From contig JAZQOK010000028.1 in assembly GCA_045627865.1 (NCBI GenBank), positions 33,653 through 97,652 of the forward strand: a stretch of 64,000 nucleotides of DNA, given 5' to 3'. Within the stretch, counting starts at the first letter, position 1, and each line of letters opens with the position of its first letter. The notes below the pieces were generated by a model, which was not told the origin of the DNA, did no database searches, and saw only the letters and a program-made list of their open reading frames with translations. The position numbers and the translations under genes are program-made. The stretch comes from Bacteroidales bacterium. GTDB taxonomy: Bacteria > Bacteroidota > Bacteroidia > Bacteroidales > UBA3663. Below, piece after piece: positions 21,982 to 54,432 of the stretch.

Positions 21982-24900
21982 ATGAAGAAATTACTATCTT
22001 CTTTAGCTTTGCTGTTTGCTTCAGCGACAATGTTTGCTGGAGTAACAGCGACTTGGAGTTTCCGAAACCCCATTCCAGAAGCCTTGTCCAACCTCAATCT
22101 GCAAGGCAGCGGTGCTACCGCTACATTACCATCCGACGTAGAAGGTATCACATGCAATGTTGATGCCACCAATGGCAAACTTTACTCTGTCGGGCGAAGC
22201 GATTGGGCACAAATGAACGCCGGCACCAAAATCCAAGTTCCTGTCATTTCCAACAAGGATGTAGTTGAAGTACTGACCTATAGTGCAGGCAAAGCCTCTA
22301 TCGGCGGAGTTGCCATGACAGAAGCCACAGGCTCCTACAAAGCAACCAAAAGTGATGTCACCAATGGCTATGTAGTAATCGAAAGTACTGGCAATGACTA
22401 CATTGGCTACATCAAAGTAACCCAGAACGAGCCAGACAATGATATTGTCAAAACTCCTTTCTCTATCGATCTCACTCAGTCTACCTTTACCCTTCCTGAA
22501 GGAGTAACCCAAGGTTCTTACCCTCAGAATGGAGCAGCCTACAAGGATAGCCAGCATGGCTGGCAGTGGTTTGTAGCAGTATTCAAGGTCGATGGTCCTG
22601 TTGCTATCAGCGTAGGCGGATGCAATTGGGGCGGCAACGCATATCTCGAAGCCGATGGTGTCAAGATTGCTGACATCGACACAAAATCAGCTGGATGCGG
22701 CAAGGAAGCCGTTTGCTACTATTCTGGCGAGGGAGCCACTCTCTCTGTCTATTGTGGAGCATATTGTCCAACTCTCAAAGTTGAAGATTACGAGCCAGTT
22801 TCCGAAGTAGTCATCACCTATTACGATGCCGACAAGACAACCGTTCTGAAGAAAGACACCGTCAATGGTGGTTCTGAACTCAAATATGCAGTTACCGCTG
22901 ATCAGGTAACCGTCGGCGAAGGCCAGAAATTCCGCCGTTGGACCGATGCAAAAGGCCTCAACGTTGCTGAAAAGATCATCGTTAACGACAATCTTGATAT
23001 CTTCGCACTCGTTACCGACATCGAGAAGAACGAGGACAACACCACCTACGATTACGATCTGACCTCTACATCATGGTATCAGGAGGATCATGAAATGATC
23101 GAAATCGACGGCAAATACCACAATGACCATGGTTGGATTCTTTCTGGTACCAAGACCATCAAGGTTCAGGTAGCTGGAAATACCAAGGTGACTATCAAGA
23201 ACTGTTATTATTCAGGAGATGCCACGGCAACCGTAGTAACTGCCACCGGCAAGGAGATCACCACCTTTGCTACCAAAGCAGAAAGCGACGGTTTACCTAC
23301 TGTCATCGACTACAATGGCGAACCTACCACCTTAACCATCACTTATCCAGCTGGTGGCTACATCCATGGTGTAAATATCGCCAATGCCGAAAGAATCGCC
23401 AGCGACAATCCGGATATGGTTATTAAAGAGAAACGCCTCTATAAGACAAATTTCCAGGATTGGGACGCTTTATCAGCCAGCGCCAAAGAGACCGTTATCA
23501 AACAGACTACTACCGATGGTCAGGAATTGAATTTCACGCTCTATAATACGGCTTGCGATCCTAAGGGCACCAATACCAAGTTTACGGCAGAAGTCTGCAC
23601 CGATGGTTATCTTCAGACCAACAAGAGCACAGATAATGTTGCATACATTACCACCTCTCCGCTGAAGAATATCTCCAAGTTCGAAGTTGTTCAGGCTGCC
23701 ACAGGTGGCACTCGCGGATTGACCGTCTATGTCAAGGGTGAGGGCGATGCCGATTGGGTTGAACTTCACAACAAGTCGATTGTAAATGCGGCTGGCGAAA
23801 CCTTGAGTTTCACCGTCGATCGCAAGAACTGCCAGATCAAGTTCGGCACCTTCGCACCTGCACAGAATGCCTATATCCTTTCGCTCAACATCTATGGCAA
23901 TGTCGAGGTTCCTGCACGCAAATTCGTTCCTTTCAAGATCGACTTCCGTACTCAGCCTTACACCGTTGTTACTCCTGAAGATGGCAAATTGCCTGCAGGC
24001 ATCGTCGTTGATACCGTCAAATACAAGGATACTCAGCATGGCTACATGAACACCAAGATTGTTGTGCCTGTCGATGGAGCCGTTAAGTTCACTATTGGCG
24101 GCTGCGGCTACACAAATCATAACGCAAAGGTTACCACCAAGGCTGGCGTTGTAACTGAAATTGATACCAAGAGCCCTGGTTGCGACAATGGTTTTGGCAC
24201 CTACGAACATCCTGCAACTTATATTTATAATAGCGAAGAGGCAGATACCCTGACCTTCGAATTAGGCGACTACTGTCCTTGGTTCTCTGCTGTAGATTGC
24301 GAATTTATTCCAGAGGCAACCGTCTCTTACTTCAACACCGACGGAAAGCTTATCGGTGAGGAGGTAGTTCCAGGTAACAGCAAGTTGGCATTCAAATACA
24401 ATGCCAGCAATGTTACCGTAGCTAATGGCAAGGCATTCCGTGGTTGGTTTGACGGCAAGACCAGCAAGGCCAAGAAGGTAAACGAAGGCATGGCTGTCGT
24501 CGAAGACATCAAGCTCTATGCCGTAGCTACCGACATCGAAGTTGCCACCCTTGGCTCTATCTTCAAATACGAGCTCAACAAGGTGAACTTCTACCCTGAG
24601 GATCACGAGATCTTCACCACAACTGGTGCTTTCCATGATACTCAGCATGGTTTTGAATTCGGAGCTAACGGCATCGTCACAATCCAGACAGCTGGCAATG
24701 CCCTGATCAATCTTGGCCTCTGCCAGTATGGAAACGAAAGTTCGGTAGTTGTAACTGATGCTGCTGGCAACACAGTTGATGAAACCATTGCATTGCCTTT
24801 GAGTCAATGTGGTCAACGCAGCATCTCTTACACTGGTGAGCCTACCACTTTGACCATCACCTTCACCAATGGTGGTTATCTGAGCAACCTGACCATCTAC

Positions 24901-30958: not shown

Positions 30959-31339
30959 TTATAATTTATGTTTCTGAAAGCTTAACGCTATAGTCAGCAA
31001 ATCTACCAATAACGATGGCATTGCGCTTATGCACATAACTTTACCTTCTGTATTATCCAATGGAATTGGCTTAAAGTCAGTGACCAGCCAAATATAATAT
31101 ATCCATGAAATAACAATTATAGCTACTATAATTATATTCTTATTAGTCAACTTTGAAGCTATTATTTTCGCTATTGATTCTAAAACAATAAACGGAATAT
31201 TAGTAATCAACGCTGTCACAAATGGAGTTATCTCATGATGAACAAATGGCTCCATACGACAAAATACAAAGAAAAATATCAAAGCGAGCAAAATCAATGA
31301 TATCAATGGAGATACGAGATAAAATACTGTTTTGTTCAT
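30959..31339 (-). CDS. Putative membrane immunity protein for the Rhs lipase toxin
   Basis: 126 aa, ~4 TM segments, TAATG overlap with the toxin stop. Confidence 0.7.
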   Translation of the reverse strand: MNKTVFYLVSPLISLILLALIFFFVFCRMEPFVHHEITPFVTALITNIPFIVLESIAKIIASKLTNKNIIIVAIIVISWIYYIWLVTDFKPIPLDNTEGKVMCISAMPSLLVDLLTIALSFQKHKL

Positions 31340-34300
31340 TAGAAGTTGCTTATGGAATGATTATTTGATGATTGACGTAGTGCTTTCCAAGAATTATGGC
31401 TATAAACATATGGCCTATAACTGGTATTCCCATACGTATTCACGTTGGGGTTAGCCATAGTAGAAGTACTTACAATTTCGCCAGATATGACATAATTTTG
31501 AATCTGCGAAGTATTAGAACCTACCAATCCCATCTCTGTCATAGTGTTATTATGAATACCAGCTGGATTAAATGTAATTGCGGCTGCGTCTGTCATCATA
31601 GAGGCGACTTGAGCCAAAGCACCGCCTAAAGAATGTCCAGCAAAGGACAATTCCTCTCCTGGGGCTAACGATGCCATTTGGGACAATGCGAGTAATGCTG
31701 CCTGTCCATATTGCGTATCCCATATTTCATTCCCCATTCCTTTATATTGGGCAAGATCTAATTGTGCGTCGGTGCCATCATTAGTTCCTGCAAATACAAT
31801 GCAAGTTTCAATGTTTTCTCCACCATTGCTTCTTTGATAAACACCATATTGAAGGCCTGTTTTATCATCAGATGCCAATCGAGTACAATTCCAACCTCCA
31901 GATAGTTCGCCCTCACCATCATACACATGTTTTGCCATTTGTGCTGCTTCAACAGAATCAGGTAACAAGCCAGTTGGATCAATCCACATGATAGGATTAC
32001 CTAAACAATATGCGTATGGACTTACTTCTGGATGTTCCTCTGCCAAAGGGTCTGGTCTATCGAACACAGGCAGAGCAGGAATGAACTGACGGGCTTGGAA
32101 ATCATAAAGGTCGAGACCGTATGTTCTATCTAGCTCTTTTCCGCTATACTTATACTTCTGTGCTTCTTGATTTGAAGACAAATTACCGATGATGCCGCCG
32201 TATGGATAGTAGTGGGTAATTTGTTCGACACTATCTTTGTCGGCATTCACCACCATACGGTTATTGCCCTGATAGTCGGCAATATAGTAATGACACTCGG
32301 GCTTCTTGTCTCCATCGAAAGAGTAGTATCCTCCAGCAAACTGATACATACTTGGCTTGCCATTCTTGAGGATAAGGTTACCGACATAGTCGGTGGAGTC
32401 ACCAATTTGACGGTACGGATTACCACGTTGAAGGAGACTGCTATAAGATGAATTAGGCAAAAGACGATAGTGTTTGGTTCTCAGTCTTCGGCCATCGGCA
32501 GCATAGACATATTCGATAAAATAGTTGTTTGCCAAAGTGATCTTCTTCGGGTTACCCAGCAGGTCGTACTCAATGTTCTGGATTCCTTTGTTTAGATCCA
32601 TGGTCAACGCTCCATTACCATTGTAGGCGTACTCTTGGTCCTTATCGTCGCCATCGACAAAATCGAAGGCACCTTCGTAATCCAAAGACTCATCTACTGC
32701 ATCAGAAACAGAAGAGATCTGGTTGCCGTTATGCTCGATGCTGAGGTCATCGATTAAGCCGAACTTCTTGTCGTTCTTCATACCATAGCGCTGCAGGGAT
32801 GTGATATTGGTGTTGGCATCGTAAGCGATGGCTTCGGTGTAGTTGCCATTTATCTTGCTGAATTTAAAGATACCTGTAGCCGTTCCCGGTTTGGATTGTC
32901 CGATGATTCCGCTTGTTGATACAGAAGAGCGGCTGCTTGAAGACATGGCAGGTTCCTCTTCCTGTGCAGTCATGAGGGTAGCATCCGAAAGACTTTCTTC
33001 CGATTCTGGAATGAGTGCCTGCAGTTTTGCAGAAGTAACAATACTGGTTCTTTCATATTGCTGATTTGCAATCAAGTCTATAGGAGTTTCCTTAAAGTCA
33101 ACAATCTGCTTAACAGGAATAAGCTTTGACGTGTAATCTGCTAAAGTCAAGCGGTTCAGGTCATCATACTCGTAGTCATAGCGATTAATACTTCTTTCAT
33201 CTGTTTGCCAAGTCATAGCAGAAATACTACCATCCCAACGTGGATGCTTGCCTTTTGTTTCTCGGTACAGATTCTGTTCGAATCCTCCCTTTGACTTGAT
33301 CTGCGTAGTCCATCCATGCAGATTATCGTAGGCATACGACATATCTGCCGCAGTACCGCTGCGGTTATTGCCAATGATGTGGCCGAAGTCATCGTATGTC
33401 AGGCATTGGAGGGTATCGGTCATGGTGTAGCCAGAATAGTCATCCCATACAGTTATTAACGAAGAAGTCAATAGTTTAGTATGCGGAGCATCGTAATTAT
33501 TTGTTAATGTTGCTTCGAAGATATTGTTGTATGTTCCATATTCTTCTTCATACTCGAAAATTTCGGAAGTTTCCAACGTCACATCTCCGATAAAATTATA
33601 GGAGTAATCGGTTATGGTAAGCTGCTTATTGAGTCCGATTTCACCCTTACGGCATACTCTGCCATAATCATCATAGGCAAAGGTCGTAAGGAGTTCTTCC
33701 CCATTGCTTGCTCGTTGTTTCGTGCCAAGCAGATAACTGTGCTTGTATTTACTGCGTAGCAAATAATAGACAGGGCCTCTATATGTCATTGCATCATAGG
33801 CATCAAGGAATGAATCCTCATCGTAGTAATTGACTATTTCGTCGTATTCTACCTTGTCACCATTGGAGATACATTGTTTCGTCAACCTCCCAAGTCCATC
33901 ATATTCATAGGTGCGGAATTTTCCAGCATCACGCAATATGCCATCCTGCATCTTGATTATGCGATCTGCTCTGTCATACCAATATTCAATAGGCTCACAG
34001 CCTGGCAGCTTCTTGGTTTTGACTCTGCCTCGATTGTCGTAGGTGTATTGGAAGGCATACTTCGCAAGGTTTGGATCTTCCTGATACTTTGGCTGAAGTA
34101 CATAGACCAGTTGACTCAGTTCATTATAAACATAGTAGGTATCATTCTTCTTTCTTTCAGATAGTCTGCGTTCAAGAATGATCCGTCCCATAAAGTCTTT
34201 GAAGATTTGTATAGTGACTCCATCTTCGTCCGATGTTTGAATGTTATATAGAGTACAATACTTGTAATACTCTTTTCCCGTCATATTGGACAGAGTGTAC

Positions 34301-34767
34301 TTCTTTACCTCATTAGGTTGGTTGCTTAAATAGTTGAATCTTTTCCCCTTTGTATTCCAAGCTTCGCCTGGAGTTGAGACAAGAATCTGTCGGTCCAACC
34401 CATCATAAGTAATTTGAGAGAATCCTTGATTATCTCCGTAGATACTTTGACTGGCACTTGCGATTGTAGACGGCATGATATAATCAGGAGTCGCACCGCC
34501 AGTTATTGGTGCCCAGATTTTGGACTCTCTCCCAGCACCATCATAATGGGTGTATGAGAGTAGATATTTACCTGAGGTGTTGACGCCACCAACGACCGAC
34601 TCATTTGGTCGGCCTAATCCATCATAATATTGCACAGAAACAATAGAATCTGTCTGGGTTCCGTTCAAATAGGAGATTGTTTTGACATAGTTATAATCGT
34701 TGTTTTGTGCTATGATAGATGTACTTGTTGTGGCGACCAACAATATTATTGAAAGATATCTTTTCAT
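31339..34767 (-). CDS. Rhs/YD-repeat polymorphic toxin (DUF6443-type N-terminus) with lipase C-terminal tip
   Basis: Signal peptide; QYYDGLGRP; YD repeats; YKYSGKELD...PDPLAE...NPIMWIDPTG; tip FAGTN...GHSLGG...TFNPAG. Confidence 0.92.
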   Translation of the reverse strand: MKRYLSIILLVATTSTSIIAQNNDYNYVKTISYLNGTQTDSIVSVQYYDGLGRPNESVVGGVNTSGKYLLSYTHYDGAGRESKIWAPITGGATPDYIMPSTIASASQSIYGDNQGFSQITYDGLDRQILVSTPGEAWNTKGKRFNYLSNQPNEVKKYTLSNMTGKEYYKYCTLYNIQTSDEDGVTIQIFKDFMGRIILERRLSERKKNDTYYVYNELSQLVYVLQPKYQEDPNLAKYAFQYTYDNRGRVKTKKLPGCEPIEYWYDRADRIIKMQDGILRDAGKFRTYEYDGLGRLTKQCISNGDKVEYDEIVNYYDEDSFLDAYDAMTYRGPVYYLLRSKYKHSYLLGTKQRASNGEELLTTFAYDDYGRVCRKGEIGLNKQLTITDYSYNFIGDVTLETSEIFEYEEEYGTYNNIFEATLTNNYDAPHTKLLTSSLITVWDDYSGYTMTDTLQCLTYDDFGHIIGNNRSGTAADMSYAYDNLHGWTTQIKSKGGFEQNLYRETKGKHPRWDGSISAMTWQTDERSINRYDYEYDDLNRLTLADYTSKLIPVKQIVDFKETPIDLIANQQYERTSIVTSAKLQALIPESEESLSDATLMTAQEEEPAMSSSSRSSVSTSGIIGQSKPGTATGIFKFSKINGNYTEAIAYDANTNITSLQRYGMKNDKKFGLIDDLSIEHNGNQISSVSDAVDESLDYEGAFDFVDGDDKDQEYAYNGNGALTMDLNKGIQNIEYDLLGNPKKITLANNYFIEYVYAADGRRLRTKHYRLLPNSSYSSLLQRGNPYRQIGDSTDYVGNLILKNGKPSMYQFAGGYYSFDGDKKPECHYYIADYQGNNRMVVNADKDSVEQITHYYPYGGIIGNLSSNQEAQKYKYSGKELDRTYGLDLYDFQARQFIPALPVFDRPDPLAEEHPEVSPYAYCLGNPIMWIDPTGLLPDSVEAAQMAKHVYDGEGELSGGWNCTRLASDDKTGLQYGVYQRSNGGENIETCIVFAGTNDGTDAQLDLAQYKGMGNEIWDTQYGQAALLALSQMASLAPGEELSFAGHSLGGALAQVASMMTDAAAITFNPAGIHNNTMTEMGLVGSNTSQIQNYVISGEIVSTSTMANPNVNTYGNTSYRPYVYSHNSWKALRQSSNNHSISNF

Positions 34768-34787
34768 TTCTTTTATTGTTGTTTACG

Positions 34788-37700
34788 TTACTTATTATTG
34801 TGATATTGGTATGAGGATATGACTTTACCTTTTGTATCCCAGACCGACATTAATCGACCGAATCCGTCATAGTCAAATTTCGTTGTCGTACCATTAGGCA
34901 TTGTTTGCGAAGTCATTCCCACTAATGGTTTGTAGGTGTAGGTCGTTACTAATCCACCAGCATCAGAAAGACTGCTTCTAATAGTATTGTAGTTTTCTAC
35001 TGACGGTTCTGATTTCGATTGCAATACAGAAATAAAAGAAGATGTAAGAATGCCTTCTACTATTGAGTAAGTTAAACCCTCAATCTTGGCAATAGGATAA
35101 TTCCCTTGATAAGACCAAAGATATACTATATTGTTTGTACTGTCTTTGACGATAGACTTTACATTTCCGTTGTCAAAGTATCCATATCGTACTCGTTCTC
35201 GCATGTTATAAGATCCAACGGACTCAGATGTAGACGACAGCCTATAGTTTCCATAATTCAGTTGATATTGATTCCTTGTGGTTATTATCTTTGTTTTTAC
35301 CCCATTGAAGATTGCAGACTCTGTTTTTTGAACAACGGCATTTGCTATATGATGTTTGTTCATCATATCTTGGCTTGTGCTGCTGCTATCGGTTGAAGTG
35401 TATATATAATCTGTATTATGGAAGGTGTTAGTCCCAAGTACAGTGTTTTCGATGGTCTTGAGTTGATGATTGATTGCGTCGTAAGAGTAAGATGTAGAGT
35501 CTCGTGATGACAAATACATTTTGCCATCATCATCATTGACGTATTCATTTACAACACGCGTTTTGAGTCGATTTTGAAACCTATGGAATGAATAGACAGA
35601 AATGCGATTGCGGCCATAATCATAATTCAAGTTATTAGGAAAAATCGGCTCTATTATATAATTCATCTTGTATGACTCGTAATTTGGAACATTATACTCA
35701 TAATTTTCTTCACGTATAATATTGTTATAGTCATCAATGTATTCCTTTTTTATAAGATTACCATTATCTTTCCTTATAATGCTAGATTTATAGCCATCAT
35801 CTATGTTACATCCAATAGTGTCGTTTTGAAAATATGATATCTCTTTTTTTCTTTGCCCATCGATTGTTGTGATGAATTTTTCAACACGCGAATAGCCGAC
35901 ATCGTTTGGAGACACAATTGAGGCAAAAGATGTCAGTCTTTGTGCACTGCTGCCTAGTCGCAAAATTCCATATATTGATGCCCAATTAGGGTCTTCTACT
36001 ACAAAGTAGGTATATGAATCAAAACCTAAAGGATTTATGAGCTTTCCGCTAGAAGTGCCATCAGAATTTGTATATTTATACTCTGTGCTCTCCAGTTTAG
36101 TCCCATTTTTGTCATAACTATTAATCGCTTTGATACGTAAACCTGCACCTTTGGCAGTCTCATAGCCCGACTTAATTGTTACAGGATTGGAATTTTCTAG
36201 TTTGCCAGAGACATAGCCATTTTCTTTTCCTTTAGAAGATATTGAAGTTACAAGCATATACGTACCTTTGGGTAAATCTACATCGATTGACTTAGTATAG
36301 TTATTAGTGGTATATACATTCACATTATCATTTCCACTGAGCCCAATTTTATATTGTTTAGGATTTTTGTAGGATTCCTGACCTATCCGGTATAGCTCAA
36401 CATACAAAGAAGTGCCAGGTTCTAACGATGCAAGGTTACCAGAATTTGCCTGAAAAACTGCGGTCAATTTGCCCGTAAAATCTTTCTGAAAAGTGATTTC
36501 TTGATGATTGGCATCAATTGACACAGATGAAACAAACCAGGCAAATGATTCAACATTGTTACTTCCTGCAGTTCCTGCAGCAAGGTTATTCAAAAAATAT
36601 TTCCTATAAGAGTTCGGTTCGTATTGGAAGATAGTATATCCTTTTGTTGGGTATGTTATTTGCGTAAGAATAAATGCATCCATCGTTTTTTCATTAGGCA
36701 AGCGATTTCCTCCATCATTCGAATATCTTTTTACGATAACAGGATTGATGTCGCAATATTGAAGAGAGGGAATCATCGTGTTTTTATAAACGGTCGTGTT
36801 TCGATTTTTGTTTTCTTGACCATTATAATATCCCCACATATCTATTGCGCAAGAAGTTTTAAGCGGAAAGTCTTTACTCTCATTGTATCCAAACGAATAG
36901 ACTTGATCTTCTTCTCCTTTGGCAGCAAAAGAAACTGATTTCAACTTAAGACGTTTCGAAAGGACTGACTTTAACGTCTTATCATCAAGATATCTGAATC
37001 TTCCTTCAAGATAATCACCACCAGTATTCGTATTTGAAACAAAATAGCCATAATCAAATTTTATGAATTTGATTATGTCATTTGTCAATTTTGATTTAGC
37101 TATAATCGAATTTAGCTTTCTACCCTTATGAAGGTCCTCTCTTTCACTCGTTATGAATGATACAGTCTGTTCTTTTGTTTCTATTGAAGACAAATATGGC
37201 TTCTCCGTATAATGATTATCATGTGAAAAATATTCATTTTTATGGTCATAGAATTGTGCGGCAATATCTGTTGAGGCTATCATCTCCAACTCAATTTCTT
37301 CCTTTTCTGATCTCCTTGGTCCCAACCACATACGCGAAGGGGATTCGTATTTGAATTCCATTAAATTTCCCTGAGGACTGATAATTTTGCTTATGTACCA
37401 GACTGAATTATACATTTCACTATTTCGAAAACTGGATTTTTCAACAACATCAAAGTAATAGATATATCCGTTTCCGTCTGCAACTGTCCATGCGCTAATT
37501 TTATTAGTTACTGGAAATCCAGAGTTGTTTATTTCACTTTCAATCGTAAAATATCCGTTTTCAGGACCGATAATTATTGCTTTTTTAGTTTCAGGATCTA
37601 GGAAGAAAAGAAGACTCGCGTTGGGAAGAGCAACAGAATAAAAGTCTAATTCTGTTAATCCGTTATTTCTGTCACTGACAACTCCTCTCAGATATCGGTT

Positions 37701-38123
37701 AGTTGTATAAAAATAGTCACTTTGGCTCTTTATTGAGTCAAGTATTTCGCTATAATTACTTCTGCTATTGACCTCTGTCCAATCAAACCCACCATTAGGA
37801 ATCAAAGATACACAGCCGCCAACATTAAAATCCCAATTAAGACCTACCCATGAAGCCTCACTGTTGACCTTAACACCTCGTGAATCATAATTGATAACCA
37901 ATGGTAGCTCTATATCTTTATACTGGAGTTTATACAATGGAACATTGATGTTTGCTGTGCCTGTGTATTCTCCAACATTGAAACGACCCTGTCGTTCGAA
38001 ACTAGTTGCTTCTGGGGACTTTTGTATTAAATAATCGTATTTTATATTATTTTCTGCAATCAGTTCGTCATTGTAGGAACTCAATGATAAAACAATAACT
38101 ACCAGTATAATACTTTTTTTCAT
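34788..38123 (-). CDS. Large secreted YD-repeat partner of the Rhs toxin (shell-forming, TcB-analogous)
   Basis: Signal peptide; SPEATSF...YTGTANINVPLY...ASWVGLNW, DMWGYYNG, GAGLRIK, TTYTYKPLVG...YDGFGRL; no toxin tip. Confidence 0.8.
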   Translation of the reverse strand: MKKSIILVVIVLSLSSYNDELIAENNIKYDYLIQKSPEATSFERQGRFNVGEYTGTANINVPLYKLQYKDIELPLVINYDSRGVKVNSEASWVGLNWDFNVGGCVSLIPNGGFDWTEVNSRSNYSEILDSIKSQSDYFYTTNRYLRGVVSDRNNGLTELDFYSVALPNASLLFFLDPETKKAIIIGPENGYFTIESEINNSGFPVTNKISAWTVADGNGYIYYFDVVEKSSFRNSEMYNSVWYISKIISPQGNLMEFKYESPSRMWLGPRRSEKEEIELEMIASTDIAAQFYDHKNEYFSHDNHYTEKPYLSSIETKEQTVSFITSEREDLHKGRKLNSIIAKSKLTNDIIKFIKFDYGYFVSNTNTGGDYLEGRFRYLDDKTLKSVLSKRLKLKSVSFAAKGEEDQVYSFGYNESKDFPLKTSCAIDMWGYYNGQENKNRNTTVYKNTMIPSLQYCDINPVIVKRYSNDGGNRLPNEKTMDAFILTQITYPTKGYTIFQYEPNSYRKYFLNNLAAGTAGSNNVESFAWFVSSVSIDANHQEITFQKDFTGKLTAVFQANSGNLASLEPGTSLYVELYRIGQESYKNPKQYKIGLSGNDNVNVYTTNNYTKSIDVDLPKGTYMLVTSISSKGKENGYVSGKLENSNPVTIKSGYETAKGAGLRIKAINSYDKNGTKLESTEYKYTNSDGTSSGKLINPLGFDSYTYFVVEDPNWASIYGILRLGSSAQRLTSFASIVSPNDVGYSRVEKFITTIDGQRKKEISYFQNDTIGCNIDDGYKSSIIRKDNGNLIKKEYIDDYNNIIREENYEYNVPNYESYKMNYIIEPIFPNNLNYDYGRNRISVYSFHRFQNRLKTRVVNEYVNDDDGKMYLSSRDSTSYSYDAINHQLKTIENTVLGTNTFHNTDYIYTSTDSSSTSQDMMNKHHIANAVVQKTESAIFNGVKTKIITTRNQYQLNYGNYRLSSTSESVGSYNMRERVRYGYFDNGNVKSIVKDSTNNIVYLWSYQGNYPIAKIEGLTYSIVEGILTSSFISVLQSKSEPSVENYNTIRSSLSDAGGLVTTYTYKPLVGMTSQTMPNGTTTKFDYDGFGRLMSVWDTKGKVISSYQYHNNK

Positions 38124-38144: not shown

Positions 38145-39209
38145 TTACTCATATACTTTTATTGTTATCTCTTGCTCTCTACACTTGATGTTCAACATAA
38201 GTGTGTTTCCGATAGGACGGCGTGACAAAGTTAGGCTTTCTTGCCATTCTCCTGCCTCTTGATTGTTATGGTGGGCGTGACCGAGAATGTTACCGAGTAT
38301 GTCGCAGGCACAGAAGTCGATGCTGCCTTCTCCATCGAGAGTATAGCAGATGTCCAGTCGTGTTCCGTCGGCAGAAAGACCTGCATTGATTGAAGCCAAA
38401 GCAGATTTTGTGGATGCTTGAGCTGCAGCATTAGCAGCATCGGCAATCGTTACTTGATTCAAGATGGAGTCATTGACTGCATCTTCGGCCAATTCCATCT
38501 GCATGACTGGCAGGAAGAGATAGGTCACGCTGTCAAAGGGCATAGTGGCTGAGTCTTCGGCCACGGTTGCCCATCTTATTGATTCCATGATGGGATAGCG
38601 ATAGCCGGCACAATACCAGCTGTAACGGTCGCATTGGATCTGGAATTCAATGGTGTCGCCAGCAAAATAAGTGTCAGTATAGTCGTCAAAGAAATGAATC
38701 CTCGTGATGTGTGGAATAGTGTCTTCTCCATCAGTCAGCATACCCATGCCATCGGCCACAGAATATCCCCAACCAGAACGTGAGGTTTTGATGTTCTCCT
38801 CTCTGCCTTGCCCCAAGAAAGAACCGGAGAGGCTGTCCCCGTACTGAAAAGGGTAACGGAGCATGGGCCTTTCCTGACTGTAGAGACAAAAGGCACGACG
38901 GCTCTGCTCTCCTTTGTCAACGAGCGTGTCGCCATGCACCAAATAATGTTGGATCCGTCCTCGTTCAAAGATGGCAATGGTGTCTCTGGCCGACGCAATG
39001 GTCTGCAGGAAATCCTGACTCTCTTTTGTCATCCGACCTAAAGGCCAGACTTCATTCGGTCCACCATCACCAGGAGCAACGTAATCCACTTGTACTTTAC
39101 ACAGTTTATCACCAGTTCTAAAGCTGTTTGCCTCGGAACTGATCGGTATCTGTGCAGTCATAGTATGCCAACAGCAAACCATGACAACAGTTGATAAAAA
39201 CAATTTCAT
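38145..39209 (-). CDS. Secreted protein with a T9SS CTD-like C-terminus, first gene of the Rhs module
   Basis: Signal peptide; YPFQYGD, WYCAGYRYP; tail CDILGN...TLMLNIKC...TIKV resembles a degenerate type A sorting domain. Confidence 0.65.
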   Translation of the reverse strand: MKLFLSTVVMVCCWHTMTAQIPISSEANSFRTGDKLCKVQVDYVAPGDGGPNEVWPLGRMTKESQDFLQTIASARDTIAIFERGRIQHYLVHGDTLVDKGEQSRRAFCLYSQERPMLRYPFQYGDSLSGSFLGQGREENIKTSRSGWGYSVADGMGMLTDGEDTIPHITRIHFFDDYTDTYFAGDTIEFQIQCDRYSWYCAGYRYPIMESIRWATVAEDSATMPFDSVTYLFLPVMQMELAEDAVNDSILNQVTIADAANAAAQASTKSALASINAGLSADGTRLDICYTLDGEGSIDFCACDILGNILGHAHHNNQEAGEWQESLTLSRRPIGNTLMLNIKCREQEITIKVYE

Positions 39210-39535
39210 TAGTAATATCCCAAAATAATGTTTATTTATATATATTTGTTTTTAGTTATAAGTTGCTATTGCGATCAAAAAGATACAGAATCTTTATCGA
39301 GTCTCAACAACAAGTAGCAAGTATGAATGGCTATCTTTCTGGCATATAGACAGATTTTCTTAACCATAATCAATTGCAAATGTATTTCTTCGTTTGGAAA
39401 GTATAACGGAACTCATAAAAAAATAAAATAAAAAGATATAAATTAGCAAAAATAATACACAAAAACGCACTTCCGCTTTGCAAAAATAAATCGAATAATG
39501 GTAACTGCATCAATAAACAAAGCAATTATTTAAAA

Positions 39536-39758
39536 AGGAAAAGAGAGGTTCTCACGAATCCCTCTTTTCCTTGAAAAAACATTTACTAAACATTCTTGAT
39601 TCATAATCCGAAGATTATTGAACTCTATTACCTAAAATCACATTTATAAAATAAACACTCTTACATTACATTTGGGTTCTAAAACACATTTGGGCATATA
39701 AAACTTAATACACACTTGATATATAATTGCGGACTATATATTGTCTTTTTTGTTTTGC
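39536..39758 (-). ncRNA. Candidate small RNA 1 (~220 nt)
   Basis: Promoter TTTG(39794-39791)-N20-TATCTTTG(39770-39763), no substantial ORF, terminator 39536-39572; 3' part paralogous to candidate 2. Confidence 0.6.
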
Positions 39759-40062
39759 ACTGCAAAGATAGGGCGAATTACTGAGCCCTCCAAATATTTT
39801 CACAAAAAAATGCAATTTTGTGTGCAATTTTATATAATTTGTTGCATTTTTATGTTGCGCAACATATTTTTTGGTAGTTAAAGGACAAAAATTCTCAAAA
39901 AAAGTAACGAATCAAGTCCAAAACAAGAAATTTGGTGCTTTCCGAAAGTCGGTCAGCAACAAATTGCAAGTTTAAATCAGATCTGTTGGATCAGCTTCTT
40001 CAATCTCAAGAAGAGTTCTCTAACTCTATTGAAAATGGAAATCAAAGATAACAAATAGAGGG

Positions 40063-40208
40063 GGAAAACGAGAAAGAGGGGTTCTCACGAATCCCTCTTT
40101 CTTAATGAAAAAACATTACTAACAAAAACATTCGGTTTTAACCTAATCTTATTCGATTATTTCTACCTTTATTCATCGCTACTTTCGCGATGATATTTCA
40201 CATTTTCC
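40063..40208 (-). ncRNA. Candidate small RNA 2 (~140 nt)
   Basis: Promoter TTTG(40244-40241)-N20-TATCTTTG(40220-40213), 5' hairpin ATCGC..GCGAT, terminator 40070-40102 with the same TTCGTGAGAA core as candidate 1. Confidence 0.6.
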
Positions 40209-40346
40209 GCGGCAAAGATAATGCACAAATTTCACATAAACAAATTTTCGGGCAAAATATTACACTAATTGTATTATTTTGCCCGAATTATTCTTAAAAA
40301 TATGCTGCAGAGCATCAATTTTCTCTGTTAAGAAATCGATTTCGAC

Positions 40347-41141
40347 TCAGAAACAAATCGAAACGCCGTCACGCTGTTCTTCGTCGTACTGAGACTCGTC
40401 AAACTCAAATTGTTCCAACGAAAGCCTGCCATCCTGCATCACAGCATAACTGAAATGCTGTATCCAATCACCGATAATCATCAGGCGGGTTTGGCGCGAC
40501 ATCATCAGATCTAACATAATGTGACGATGACCGAAAATAAAATAATCAGGTGCAGGATTCTGCTTTATGTAGTTTTTGGCGAAAATAACTTGATATTCCT
40601 TATCTTCGCCAAGGAAATCTGGGAACTTGCCTCCTGTCACGCGGCTATGGGTACTCCATTTATGCGCAAGAGCAGTTGCCCAATCCGGATAAATCCAGCT
40701 GAACATCCGCTGACAGATGCGACTATGGAAGAATCCATTCATGAATTTGAACGCAGCCGTATCATGTCCCAGTCCATCGCCATGAGCCAGATAACAGGAC
40801 TTGCCCTGAATCTCAAACAAACCTCCCTGTCGATGCACCTTGACGCCTGTCTCCTCTTCGATGTAACCAAAGGTCCAGATATCATGATTTCCCGTAAACC
40901 AATGCACCTCAATACCGGCATCGGTGAATTCGCCCAGTTTACCAAGGAAACGGGTGAATCCCTTTGGGACAACATATTTATATTCGAACCAATAATCGAT
41001 CACATCACCCAGCAGGTAGAGGGTCTGACAGTCCTCTTTGATGCTATCCAGAAAGCGTACCACCCTGCGTTCGTAATCCAGAGGATTCTCGAACGTCTGG
41101 GCGCCAAGATGCATATCCGATATGAAATAAACTTTCTTCAT
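40347..41141 (-). CDS. lpxH: UDP-2,3-diacylglucosamine diphosphatase
   Basis: ISDMHLG, LLGDVIDYWFEY, FTGNHD, AHGDGLG, FGHRH, IGDW. Confidence 0.88.
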   Translation of the reverse strand: MKKVYFISDMHLGAQTFENPLDYERRVVRFLDSIKEDCQTLYLLGDVIDYWFEYKYVVPKGFTRFLGKLGEFTDAGIEVHWFTGNHDIWTFGYIEEETGVKVHRQGGLFEIQGKSCYLAHGDGLGHDTAAFKFMNGFFHSRICQRMFSWIYPDWATALAHKWSTHSRVTGGKFPDFLGEDKEYQVIFAKNYIKQNPAPDYFIFGHRHIMLDLMMSRQTRLMIIGDWIQHFSYAVMQDGRLSLEQFEFDESQYDEEQRDGVSICF

Positions 41142-47644: not shown

Positions 47645-48226
47645 ATGTCTTTCGATTTCCAGGAATTTCTTTCAGCATTTATTGTCATCTTCGCTATGAT
47701 TGACGTGACAGGACTTACGCCAGTGGTCATTGACCTCCAGCAGAAGTCCGGTCCGGTCAATGCGGTTAAAGCTGCGCTCTATTCTCTGATCGTCTTAGTT
47801 GCATTTCTCTTTGCCGGAAGTACGATTCTTGATCTTTTCAACGTAGATATTCATTCGTTTGCAGCTGCCGGTGGTGTCGTCATCTTCCTGATGGGACTTG
47901 AGATGACACTCGGTCGTGAGATATTCCGTTATAGCGATGGACCCCAAGGCTCAACGACCATCGTGCCGGTTGTCTTTCCGCTCATTGCAGGTGCCGGTAC
48001 CTTTACCGCACTCCTCTCCCTTCGTGCTGAATATAGCATTATGAATATTCTTTTGGCTCTGGCCTTGAATATCCTCATTGTTTATATAGTATTACGCAAC
48101 GTCCGCGCTCTTGAACGAGTGCTCGGGCAGGGCGGCATCTATGTCCTTCGCAAGTTCTTCGGTATCATTCTTCTCGCCATTGCCGTGAAGTTGTTTACCA
48201 GCAACATTGCCTATTTACTCTCATAA
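47645..48226 (+). CDS. MarC family membrane protein
   Basis: 6 TM segments; VPVVFPLIAGAG; RKFFGIILLAIAV. Confidence 0.88.
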   Translation: MSFDFQEFLSAFIVIFAMIDVTGLTPVVIDLQQKSGPVNAVKAALYSLIVLVAFLFAGSTILDLFNVDIHSFAAAGGVVIFLMGLEMTLGREIFRYSDGPQGSTTIVPVVFPLIAGAGTFTALLSLRAEYSIMNILLALALNILIVYIVLRNVRALERVLGQGGIYVLRKFFGIILLAIAVKLFTSNIAYLLS

Positions 48227-53595: not shown

Positions 53596-54432
53596 ATGAA
53601 GAAAACATTATTCATGATGGCTGCACTCCTGATGAGTGCCATCACATTCGAGGCAAAAGCCGACCTCTTGAATATCGGTGGTGTTAGAACCAAAATTTAC
53701 TCTTTCTCGAACAAGAGTTTCGATGGTGCAGAGCAGGAGCAACGTGCCATGCAGGAGATCAGCGAGATTGTCAACAACGGTCCGCTCAACATTGTATATG
53801 TAGAGAGTTCTGAAAGCAAAGTGATCATTCAGGGCGACAAAGATCTCTTCTGCCGTGTTCAGACCCAGTACAAGAATGGTGCGGTCAACGTATCTCTCGA
53901 AGCTGGCACCTATCGCAATCTTTGGCTGCAGGTAGTCGTTTATGCCCCAAAACTGAAAGGAATCAAGTGTACCGGCTCTGGTGATGTAATTGCCGCAAAG
54001 GTAAATTGTACCAACGACGAAATGAATGTCAAGGTGACCGGAAGTGCAAGTGTCAAGATCGAGGAACTGATCTGCGAAGACGATCTGGACCTCCACATTA
54101 CCGGTTCGGGTGATATCCGCGCAAACAAGATCTCTTGCAAACGTCTCGATGGCAACGTCACAGGTTCGGGTGATATCATGGCCAAGAATACAGTATGCAA
54201 CAAGCTCGAAGCAACCGTAAGCGGTTCTGGTGGTGCTAAGTTCGATTATATCAGCAGCAAGGAGGCATCATTGAGCGTCACCGGTTCTGGAGACATTCGT
54301 CTCATCGATGGCGAGCTTCAGGACATCAAGGCACGCGTTACCGGATCGGGTCAGATTATGGGCACTGTCAAGTACCATTCTATCGATCAACGAGTAACCG
54401 GTTCCGGTTCCATCCGCATCAATCAGAAATAA
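53596..54432 (+). CDS. DUF2807/GIN-domain beta-helical repeat protein
   Basis: Signal peptide; many (V/I)TGSG(D/S)I repeats. Confidence 0.85.
   Translation: MKKTLFMMAALLMSAITFEAKADLLNIGGVRTKIYSFSNKSFDGAEQEQRAMQEISEIVNNGPLNIVYVESSESKVIIQGDKDLFCRVQTQYKNGAVNVSLEAGTYRNLWLQVVVYAPKLKGIKCTGSGDVIAAKVNCTNDEMNVKVTGSASVKIEELICEDDLDLHITGSGDIRANKISCKRLDGNVTGSGDIMAKNTVCNKLEATVSGSGGAKFDYISSKEASLSVTGSGDIRLIDGELQDIKARVTGSGQIMGTVKYHSIDQRVTGSGSIRINQK

What the first reader, a model, noticed from the sequence alone, without database searches (positions are those of the whole stretch)
39536..40244. Tandem paralogous sRNA candidates carrying a sequence antisense to ATG-AAA-AAA starts
Seen: two ORF-less minus-strand units, each with a canonical TTTG-N20-TATCTTTG promoter and near-identical terminators (AAGAGGGATTCGTGAGAACC(C/T)CTCTTT). 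Each terminator is preceded by a shared U-rich block, UUAGUA(A)AUGUUUUUUCA. Its complement (ATGAAAAAACATTACTAA in copy 2) resembles MKK starts of secreted-protein genes, e.g. ATGAAGAAAACATT at 53596 and 62960 and ATGAAGAAATTACTA at 21982. Established: B. thetaiotaomicron has paralogous sRNAs (FopS) that regulate polysaccharide-utilisation mRNAs. Inference: sibling sRNAs that repress translation of exported or glycan-utilisation proteins; homology to FopS is not shown.
Basis: partly seen in the sequence, partly recalled or inferred. Interest (0 to 1): 0.72.

Follow-up and report, generated by a model that had tools for sequence, protein, structure and literature searches.

The report
Starvation-box small RNAs masking start codons
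Two neighbouring promoter-to-terminator units belong to an uncatalogued, narrowly distributed family of likely small regulatory RNAs in uncultured gut Bacteroidales; they are not FopS, but they carry a similar short stretch predicted to cover the start of secreted-protein messages, and one sits behind a DNA box that likely switches it on when carbon runs out.

Summary
In detail: two minus-strand units (about 138 and 221 nt), each with a Bacteroidota promoter, a U-rich core and a shared terminator. They are paralogues in a multicopy family found in 6 of 39 genomes of one genus, with variable 5' halves, a near-invariant core and a covarying terminator. They are not FopS: Rfam FopS does not hit them, while three true FopS genes lie elsewhere in the genome. 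Only the terminal UUUUUUCA(U) carries the anti-start signal (AUG-Lys-Lys starts, 213 of 245 signal-peptide-like); the longer resemblance does no better than shuffles, the U opposite the A of AUG is not conserved, and SusC genes are not favoured. New: a Cur/BT4338-like palindrome lies exactly 96 nt upstream of the -7 box in 7 of 7 long copies of the second type; a similar box precedes EF-G2. No RbpB-type protein was found in 39 genomes. Expression evidence is one weak metatranscriptome hint. Best reading: likely carbon-starvation-induced sRNAs that dampen translation of exported proteins. The scan noted other FopS-like families in other genomes, not this one.

The parts
40301..40316 (.). Degenerate copy of the palindromic box, 96 nt upstream of the -7 box of unit A (3 of 12 specified bases off); not found in the G003 orthologue
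40213..40244 (-). Promoter A: -33 TTTG, 20-nt spacer, -7 TATCTTTG
   Evidence: consensus TAnnTTTG/TTTG from PMC7366714
40070..40207 (-). Unit A, predicted sRNA of about 138 nt (start inferred)
   Evidence: (z -4.28, 0 of 200 shuffles); orthologue in G003
40174..40192 (-). 5' hairpin of unit A; a hairpin of other sequence is predicted at the same place in G003
40105..40136 (-). Conserved U-rich core of unit A, ending in the predicted anti-start seed UUUUUUCAU
40071..40102 (-). Terminator hairpin A (GUGA loop), covarying across the family
39851..39866 (.). Palindrome resembling the Cur/BT4338 site, exactly 96 nt upstream of the -7 box of unit B
39763..39794 (-). Promoter B: -33 TTTG, 20-nt spacer, -7 TATCTTTG
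39536..39757 (-). Unit B, predicted sRNA of about 221 nt (start inferred)
   Evidence: (z -2.40, 4 of 200 shuffles); weak RNA-contig cover in run X1
39668..39694 (-). Two CCCAAAUGU repeats in the variable 5' half of unit B, shared with other ORF-less units of the genome
39603..39618 (-). Small hairpin (AUAAUC-UUCG-GAUUAU); a similar short stem is kept in the long copies of relatives
39572..39589 (-). Shortened core of unit B ending in UUUUUUCA (followed by A, not U)
39536..39567 (-). Terminator hairpin B
40347..41141 (-). Upstream neighbour: calcineurin-like metallophosphoesterase gene (LpxH-like by recall); marks the syntenic site of the family in 4 genomes

Best explanation
The two units are paralogous members of a genus-restricted multicopy family of likely trans-acting small RNAs, distinct from FopS, whose terminator-proximal UUUUUUCA seed is predicted to pair over the AUG-Lys-Lys start of mRNAs for exported proteins and would block their translation, with unit B likely switched on by the carbohydrate master regulator Cur. 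Shown: promoter and terminator motifs, paralogy, conservation, covariation, the fixed-distance box, the complementarity statistics. Inferred: transcription, pairing in the cell, repression, the identity of the regulator and activation by carbon limitation. The rest of the U-rich core likely extends pairing on individual targets or on A-rich leaders.
For: Family in 6 of 39 genus genomes with 1-4 copies, reversed-pattern control 0. Terminator: 11 of 11 pairs kept in 9 sequences, 3 pairs with changes on both sides, 0 of 500 shuffles reach the covariation score. Downstream context varies (second unit, convergent gene, triple tandem), which argues against a leader. Seed A gives 47 of 2178 genes below -12 kcal/mol in the AUG-spanning window versus 7-20 at ten other offsets; 31 of the top 50 are signal-peptide-like against 35% background; 1 of 40 and 0 of 40 full shuffles reach these values. 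AUG-Lys-Lys starts: 213 of 245 have a hydrophobic stretch versus 547 of 1365 other genes with early K/R. The same U-run+CA motif is the R1 seed of FopS/GibS, shown to pair around start codons (PMC11697453). Box at exactly 96 nt in 7 of 7 long B-type genome copies and 7 of 8 long metagenome copies, the eighth at 94 (several nearly identical to the genome copies); it resembles the published BT4338 consensus (PMC6989115); a similar box precedes this genome's EF-G2 gene, the hallmark Cur target; one Crp-family regulator passes the Pfam cut-off.
Against: No raw-read evidence; in RNA run X1 two contigs touch unit B only (88 nt identical, depth 3.2; 47 nt with gaps, depth 13), none touches unit A, and one runs past the terminator into unrelated sequence. 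With the last 9 (A) or 8 (B) bases fixed, shuffles of the rest do as well (22 of 30 and 26 of 30 reach the observed count), so the strict conservation of the remaining core is unexplained by start-codon pairing. The base opposite the A of AUG is U only in the two A copies, A or G in seven others, and the three short copies end UUUUUGAAG with no anti-AUG. The seed is only about 35% unpaired in the folding ensemble of both units. The box centre differs from the published nTAn and the Crp protein was not shown to be a Cur orthologue. Gene starts and signal peptides come from my own simple caller.
Confidence: 0.58

Rival explanations
1. Real sRNAs, but the whole U-rich core pairs with A-rich 5' leaders (the Bacteroidota translation-enhancer region) of a few specific mRNAs, and the anti-start look is secondary.
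For: The 70-nt short paralogue (G000:C34) has a 27-of-28 complement at -34 to -7 of an outer-membrane beta-barrel gene (G000:C11, PF14905): score 26.5 against a best of 23 in 25 shuffles. A second site lies just before an AUG on C37. The core, not the CAU, is what all copies share.
Against: The site is degraded in the G003 orthologue (-18.8 versus -30.3 kcal/mol) although that genome's short sRNA core is identical. No excess of strong duplexes at upstream offsets for seed A, no class bias in leader windows. Shuffles destroy the A5C periodicity common in leaders, so the control is lenient.
Confidence: 0.2
2. The RNAs act as protein decoys: repeated single-stranded AAUGUUU / CCCAAAUGU motifs titrate an RNA-binding protein.
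For: The core is a tandem AAUGUUUUU repeat; unit B has two CCCAAAUGU copies, and other ORF-less units carry 3-4.
Against: The motifs are not shown in conserved hairpin loops; the number of repeats varies and unit A has no CCCAAAUGU; no RRM-1 (RbpB-type) protein was found in 0 of 39 genus genomes searched.
Confidence: 0.12
3. The units encode a short Phe-rich peptide (MFLLVMFF...) or work as attenuating leaders of downstream genes.
For: An AUG-started frame MFLLVMF(F/L) runs through the core in 10 of 12 copies, just before a terminator.
Against: Length and stop vary (9 to over 20 codons), unit B lacks the frame, the -3 base is C or T rather than the favoured A, the core shows no synonymous change, and many copies have no co-oriented gene behind them.
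Confidence: 0.05
4. Decayed, untranscribed duplications of a promoter-terminator cassette with no function.
For: Narrow range (6 of 39 genomes); no firm expression data.
Against: Invariant core and fixed box spacing amid diverged flanks and 5' halves; compensatory stem changes.
Confidence: 0.05

Closest known systems
FopS sRNA family (Rfam RF04319; PMC11697453)
   Same: Multicopy, canonical sigma-ABfr promoter, single-stranded U-rich seed plus intrinsic terminator; seed shares UGUUUUU(U)CA with R1; the family's short members are about 70 nt like FopS; predicted pairing over start codons of exported proteins.
   Different: No RF04319 hit on either unit at E up to 10, while three other loci of the same genome pass the cut-off; seed lies at the 3' end, not the 5' end; the R1' extension after CAU is missing, so pairing would run into the coding region rather than the leader; 138-221 nt with variable 5' halves; 6 of 39 versus 39 of 39 genus genomes; Cur-like box; no SusC preference.
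GibS (RF04182; PMC7366714) and BTnc231 (RF04180)
   Same: Both models begin with GU-U-run-CAU; BTnc231 has a similar CGUGAG-loop hairpin and gives weak hits on both units.
   Different: BTnc231 scores are 16 bits against a cut-off of 80.4; no GibS hit; GibS uses a different promoter motif (PM2) and a 5' seed.
MasB (BTnc201; PMC10994844)
   Same: Narrowly conserved intergenic sRNA activated by Cur on carbon deprivation, repressing an mRNA by pairing near its 5' end.
   Different: Single gene of about 100 nt with a predicted site about 40 nt downstream of the start codon; no sequence comparison could be made (MasB sequence not in the passages or supplements I could search).
SrcF of Segatella copri (10.1101/2024.04.05.588293)
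   Same: Lineage-restricted, carbohydrate-responsive intergenic sRNA of gut Bacteroidales.
   Different: 272 nt, regulated through an HTCS, direct targets undefined (PMC13750123); sequence not compared.

Membership tests
FopS (RF04319) | Score at or above the Rfam gathering threshold (56 bits) | tested here: not met
   No FopS hit on 38800-41000 or 39500-40250 at E up to 10; none on the short paralogue at E up to 1; positive controls in the same genome 70.6, 57.9, 57.6 bits
FopS (RF04319) | R1 seed at the very 5' end of the RNA | tested here: not met
   The R1-like motif lies about 95-100 nt (A) and 180 nt (B) from the inferred start, next to the terminator
FopS (RF04319) | R1' extension (the ~17 nt after CAU in the consensus of PMC11697453 supplement 3) | tested here: not met
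   CA(U) is followed directly by the terminator; a 12-nt look-alike of the extension's far end lies upstream of the core instead (40149-40138), significance untested
FopS (RF04319) | Canonical sigma-ABfr promoter and intrinsic terminator | tested here: met
   (motifs only; activity not tested)
FopS (RF04319) | Multicopy in one genome | tested here: met
   3 copies at E below 2e-7 in G000, 1-4 in five relatives
FopS (RF04319) | Targets enriched for SusC transporters | tested here: not met
   25 SusC genes versus other signal-like genes p=0.72 (A), 0.49 (B); the FopS control itself reached only p=0.06, so the test is weak
FopS (RF04319) | Bound by the RRM-1 protein RbpB | not testable with these tools
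   Binding untestable; PF00076 not found in 39 of 39 genus genomes searched, most under 90% complete; control B. thetaiotaomicron positive
BTnc231 (RF04180) / GibS (RF04182) | Rfam score above cut-off | tested here: not met
   16.0-16.3 bits versus 80.4; no GibS hit
Cur (BT4338) regulon | Palindromic site resembling wwwTATGTTnTAnAACATAwww upstream of the promoter | tested here: met
   Unit B: both 6-bp arms match, centre GCGC differs; fixed at 96 nt in 7 of 7 long B-type copies. Unit A: degenerate only
Cur (BT4338) regulon | A Cur orthologue in the genome | tested here: inconclusive
   One Crp/Fnr protein above cut-off, no Cur-specific model hit; EF-G2 gene with the box is present
Cur (BT4338) regulon | Cur binding and induction on carbon limitation | not testable with these tools
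   needs ChIP/EMSA and expression data

The most novel reading that the evidence does not exclude
A young, expanding sRNA family reads a generic export code (AUG-Lys-Lys, about 11% of genes, 87% of them with signal-like peptides) and is wired to the Cur starvation switch, alongside a Cur-box RNA complementary to FopS, in a lineage where no RbpB was found: on carbon limitation the cell would silence FopS by a sponge and swap in a different anti-start sRNA set, an all-RNA circuit that rebalances the secreted proteome without the known chaperone.
Probability: 0.2. Interest if true: 0.75.

Novelty: new variant of a known kind. Interest (0 to 1): 0.46.

Why it matters
Bacteroidota lack Shine-Dalgarno sequences, and few of their sRNAs have known mechanisms. 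This family suggests that the anti-start-codon seed of FopS/GibS has been reused in a different layout (3' seed, exchangeable 5' halves) and placed under the carbohydrate master regulator, in a lineage that keeps FopS but where no RbpB-type protein was found. It gives short, testable hypotheses on how uncultured gut fibre degraders cut secretion when starved. The principle is known, the family is narrow and uncultured, so the gain is moderate.

Tried and rejected
Rfam at gathering threshold on the whole window: 0 hits. Viral scan: 2 hits, the same stretch of an AT-rich coding region with no promoter or terminator, rejected as chance. Model search of 150 other genomes of the order: 2 weak hits (41 and 37 bits), terminator-like only; two weak genus hits (G022, G009) dropped for the same reason, leaving 6 of 39. 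The 'family' search returned only genomes of the same genus. Generic sigma-70 promoter scan uninformative. Extended CDS complement rejected. SusC bias rejected. Pairing of units A and B with FopS is weak (-8.5, -10.4 kcal/mol), so they are not FopS sponges. RF04178 proved to be BTnc005, no relevant hit. Lack of RNA cover on unit A is no finding (contigs only). The extent of the 240-nt RNA contig on a relative's copy stays open. Paper searches for a prior description found none of this family; closed or unread supplements (bioRxiv SrcF preprint; main supplementary PDF of PMC11697453, too large; 9 of 20 files of PMC10994844) could hold related sequences.

Full report
Observation. The minus strand between a metallophosphoesterase gene (41141-40347, PF00149) and a 354-aa ORF starting at 39209 holds no ORF of 80 aa or more. 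It carries two TTTG-N20-TATCTTTG promoters, two near-identical GUGA-loop hairpins and the shared U-rich block at the stated places. Two promoter patterns arose in 0 of 5000 shuffles of the region. Inferred RNAs are about 138 nt (A, upstream) and 221 nt (B); they fold better than shuffles, largely through the terminator (z -4.28 and -2.40). A generic scan did not score the terminators; their U-tails are interrupted.

Family. A 27-nt core pattern with up to 3 mismatches is found in 6 of 39 genomes of the genus, reversed control 0. A covariance model built from 9 copies hit 8 of 39 at E up to 0.01; I dropped the two weakest after inspection, leaving the same six. An exact 24-nt scan of 185,579 species genomes gave 8 stretches in 5 assemblies, all titled uncultured Bacteroidales MAGs; 150 other genomes of the order gave 2 terminator-only hits; a metagenome scan gave 10 matches in 8 stretches, all with promoter and core. 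Members are long (138-221 nt, divergent 5' halves) or short (about 70-74 nt, promoter-core-terminator). G042 has three in tandem; in G003 A and B face each other across an inserted gene. Of 22 genomes whose phosphoesterase gene I followed downstream (of 38 with the gene; two regions truncated), the four with the closest protein carry a unit there, so the family looks young and clade-limited. One DNA contig from run X2 joins an A-type core to a B-type 5' part, in line with exchange among copies. The terminator keeps 11 of 11 pairs in 9 sequences with 3 doubly changed pairs; 0 of 500 shuffles reach the covariation score, though relatedness inflates this.

Not FopS. Rfam RF04319 does not hit either unit at E up to 10, while three other loci of this genome pass the cut-off and 39 of 39 genus genomes hold FopS. 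The FopS consensus (PMC11697453; I read Results parts 2-3, one Methods section, passages and parts of supplements 3 and 4) starts with R1 and continues into a segment that pairs with the leader before AUG. Here the R1-like motif sits at the 3' end and pairing would run into the coding region. BTnc231 hits are 16 bits against 80.4.

Targets. With my own gene calls (2210 ORFs, 2178 used), the 22-nt seed of A gives 47 duplexes below -12 kcal/mol in the AUG-spanning window against 7-20 at ten other offsets, and 31 of the top 50 are signal-peptide-like against 35% background; full shuffles reach these in 1 and 0 of 40. Holding CAU fixed, 9 of 30 shuffles reach the count and 1 of 30 the signal bias; holding the last 9 bases fixed, 22 and 5 of 30 do; for B 26 and 7 of 30. 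So only UUUUUUCA(U) carries the signal. It marks AUG-Lys-Lys starts, 213 of 245 of which have a hydrophobic stretch versus 547 of 1365 other genes with early K/R. SusC genes are not favoured. The anti-A of AUG is not conserved and short copies lack the anti-AUG. The short paralogue instead has a 27-of-28 complement in the leader of an outer-membrane beta-barrel gene, above all 25 shuffles, but the site is degraded in the one orthologue found. Opening the 8-nt seed costs 1.5-3.6 kcal/mol and no sequestering stem is shared.

Regulation. A palindrome lies exactly 96 nt upstream of the -7 box in 7 of 7 long B-type genome copies, degenerate in G000 A, not found in G003 A or the three short copies; 7 of 8 long metagenome copies have it at 96 and one at 94 (not independent). 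It matches both arms of the BT4338/Cur consensus (PMC6989115, passages). Of 386 canonical promoters in the genome only 3 have a box at this distance, two being A and B; a box also precedes the EF-G2 gene (NF058620 above cut-off), the best-documented Cur target. One Crp-family protein is present but not shown to be Cur. MasB is a precedent for a Cur-activated sRNA (PMC10994844, passages). No RRM-1 protein was found in the 39 genomes.

Expression. Of 24 runs listed, one RNA run held a small share. On laying 4 runs, that gut metatranscriptome gave two contigs on unit B (88 nt identical; a 240-nt contig of a relative ending at the terminator's first arm) and only short 85-92% pieces on neighbouring genes; one contig passes the terminator and no silent-stretch control was laid, so this is a weak hint.

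Verdict. A real, uncatalogued sRNA family (about 0.85 that these are functional RNA genes) that likely works like FopS/GibS but is not a member. Start-codon repression of exported proteins is the best mechanism (0.58); most of the conserved core remains unexplained. Searches found no description (listings; passages of PMC7366714, PMC13750123, PMC10294740 and the SrcF preprint were read). Earlier scan notes describe other FopS-like families in other genomes and no look-alike of this stretch.

Noticed in passing
G000:C38:47962 minus strand (site 47870-47893): ORF-less promoter-terminator unit with a perfect Cur-like box whose RNA would pair 26 nt with the FopS seed (-30.4 kcal/mol) but lacks the AUG: candidate FopS sponge. 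Similar start-codon-less sites recur in many genus genomes; the pattern also hits FopS genes themselves, and I did not check that each site lies in a sRNA.
   Followed up: partly
G000:C12:237657+, C18:7474-, C33:21734+: Three true FopS genes; FopS passes the cut-off in 39 of 39 genus genomes while no RRM-1 (RbpB-type) protein was found in any.
   Followed up: yes
G000:C39:85847-, C39:11898-, C37:85320-, C12:36279-: Further ORF-less promoter-terminator units (about 125-165 nt) behind Cur-like boxes: a bank of candidate Cur-controlled sRNAs.
   Followed up: partly
G000:C26:24173+, C38:37675+, C7:50500-: ORF-less units with 3-4 (C7: one) CCCAA(A)UGU repeats before a terminator; C26 and C38 have two box-like sites upstream; C7 joins an A-rich FopS-complement-like start to an AAUGUUUUUUCAU motif.
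   Followed up: partly
G000:C34:39358-39427+ and C5:225216+: Short 70-nt paralogue of the family, and a diverged core upstream of a different hairpin, both conserved in G003.
   Followed up: yes
L065 (G003:C87:40535-40605): A fourth, diverged family member right behind the EF-G2-like gene in G003, absent at that place in G000.
   Followed up: partly
window 40247-40287: 18-bp inverted repeat (94% complementary) just upstream of promoter A: terminator of the upstream operon or an operator; not kept in G003.
   Followed up: no
window 40043-40050, minus strand: A third TATCTTTG just after terminator A with no -33 element; in G003 a promoter here precedes an inserted gene, so it may be a remnant.
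   Followed up: no
window 31339-38123, minus strand: Two large RHS-repeat ORFs (1142 aa with DUF6443, 1111 aa) followed by a small membrane-type ORF: polymorphic-toxin-like arrangement by general knowledge.
   Followed up: no
G000 C11_43416, C16_19849, C19_116708: Three exported-protein genes share an upstream CCGTCTAACTTGCAAA motif (ECF-sigma-like by recall) and UUCAAAAACA leaders complementary to the short paralogue.
   Followed up: no
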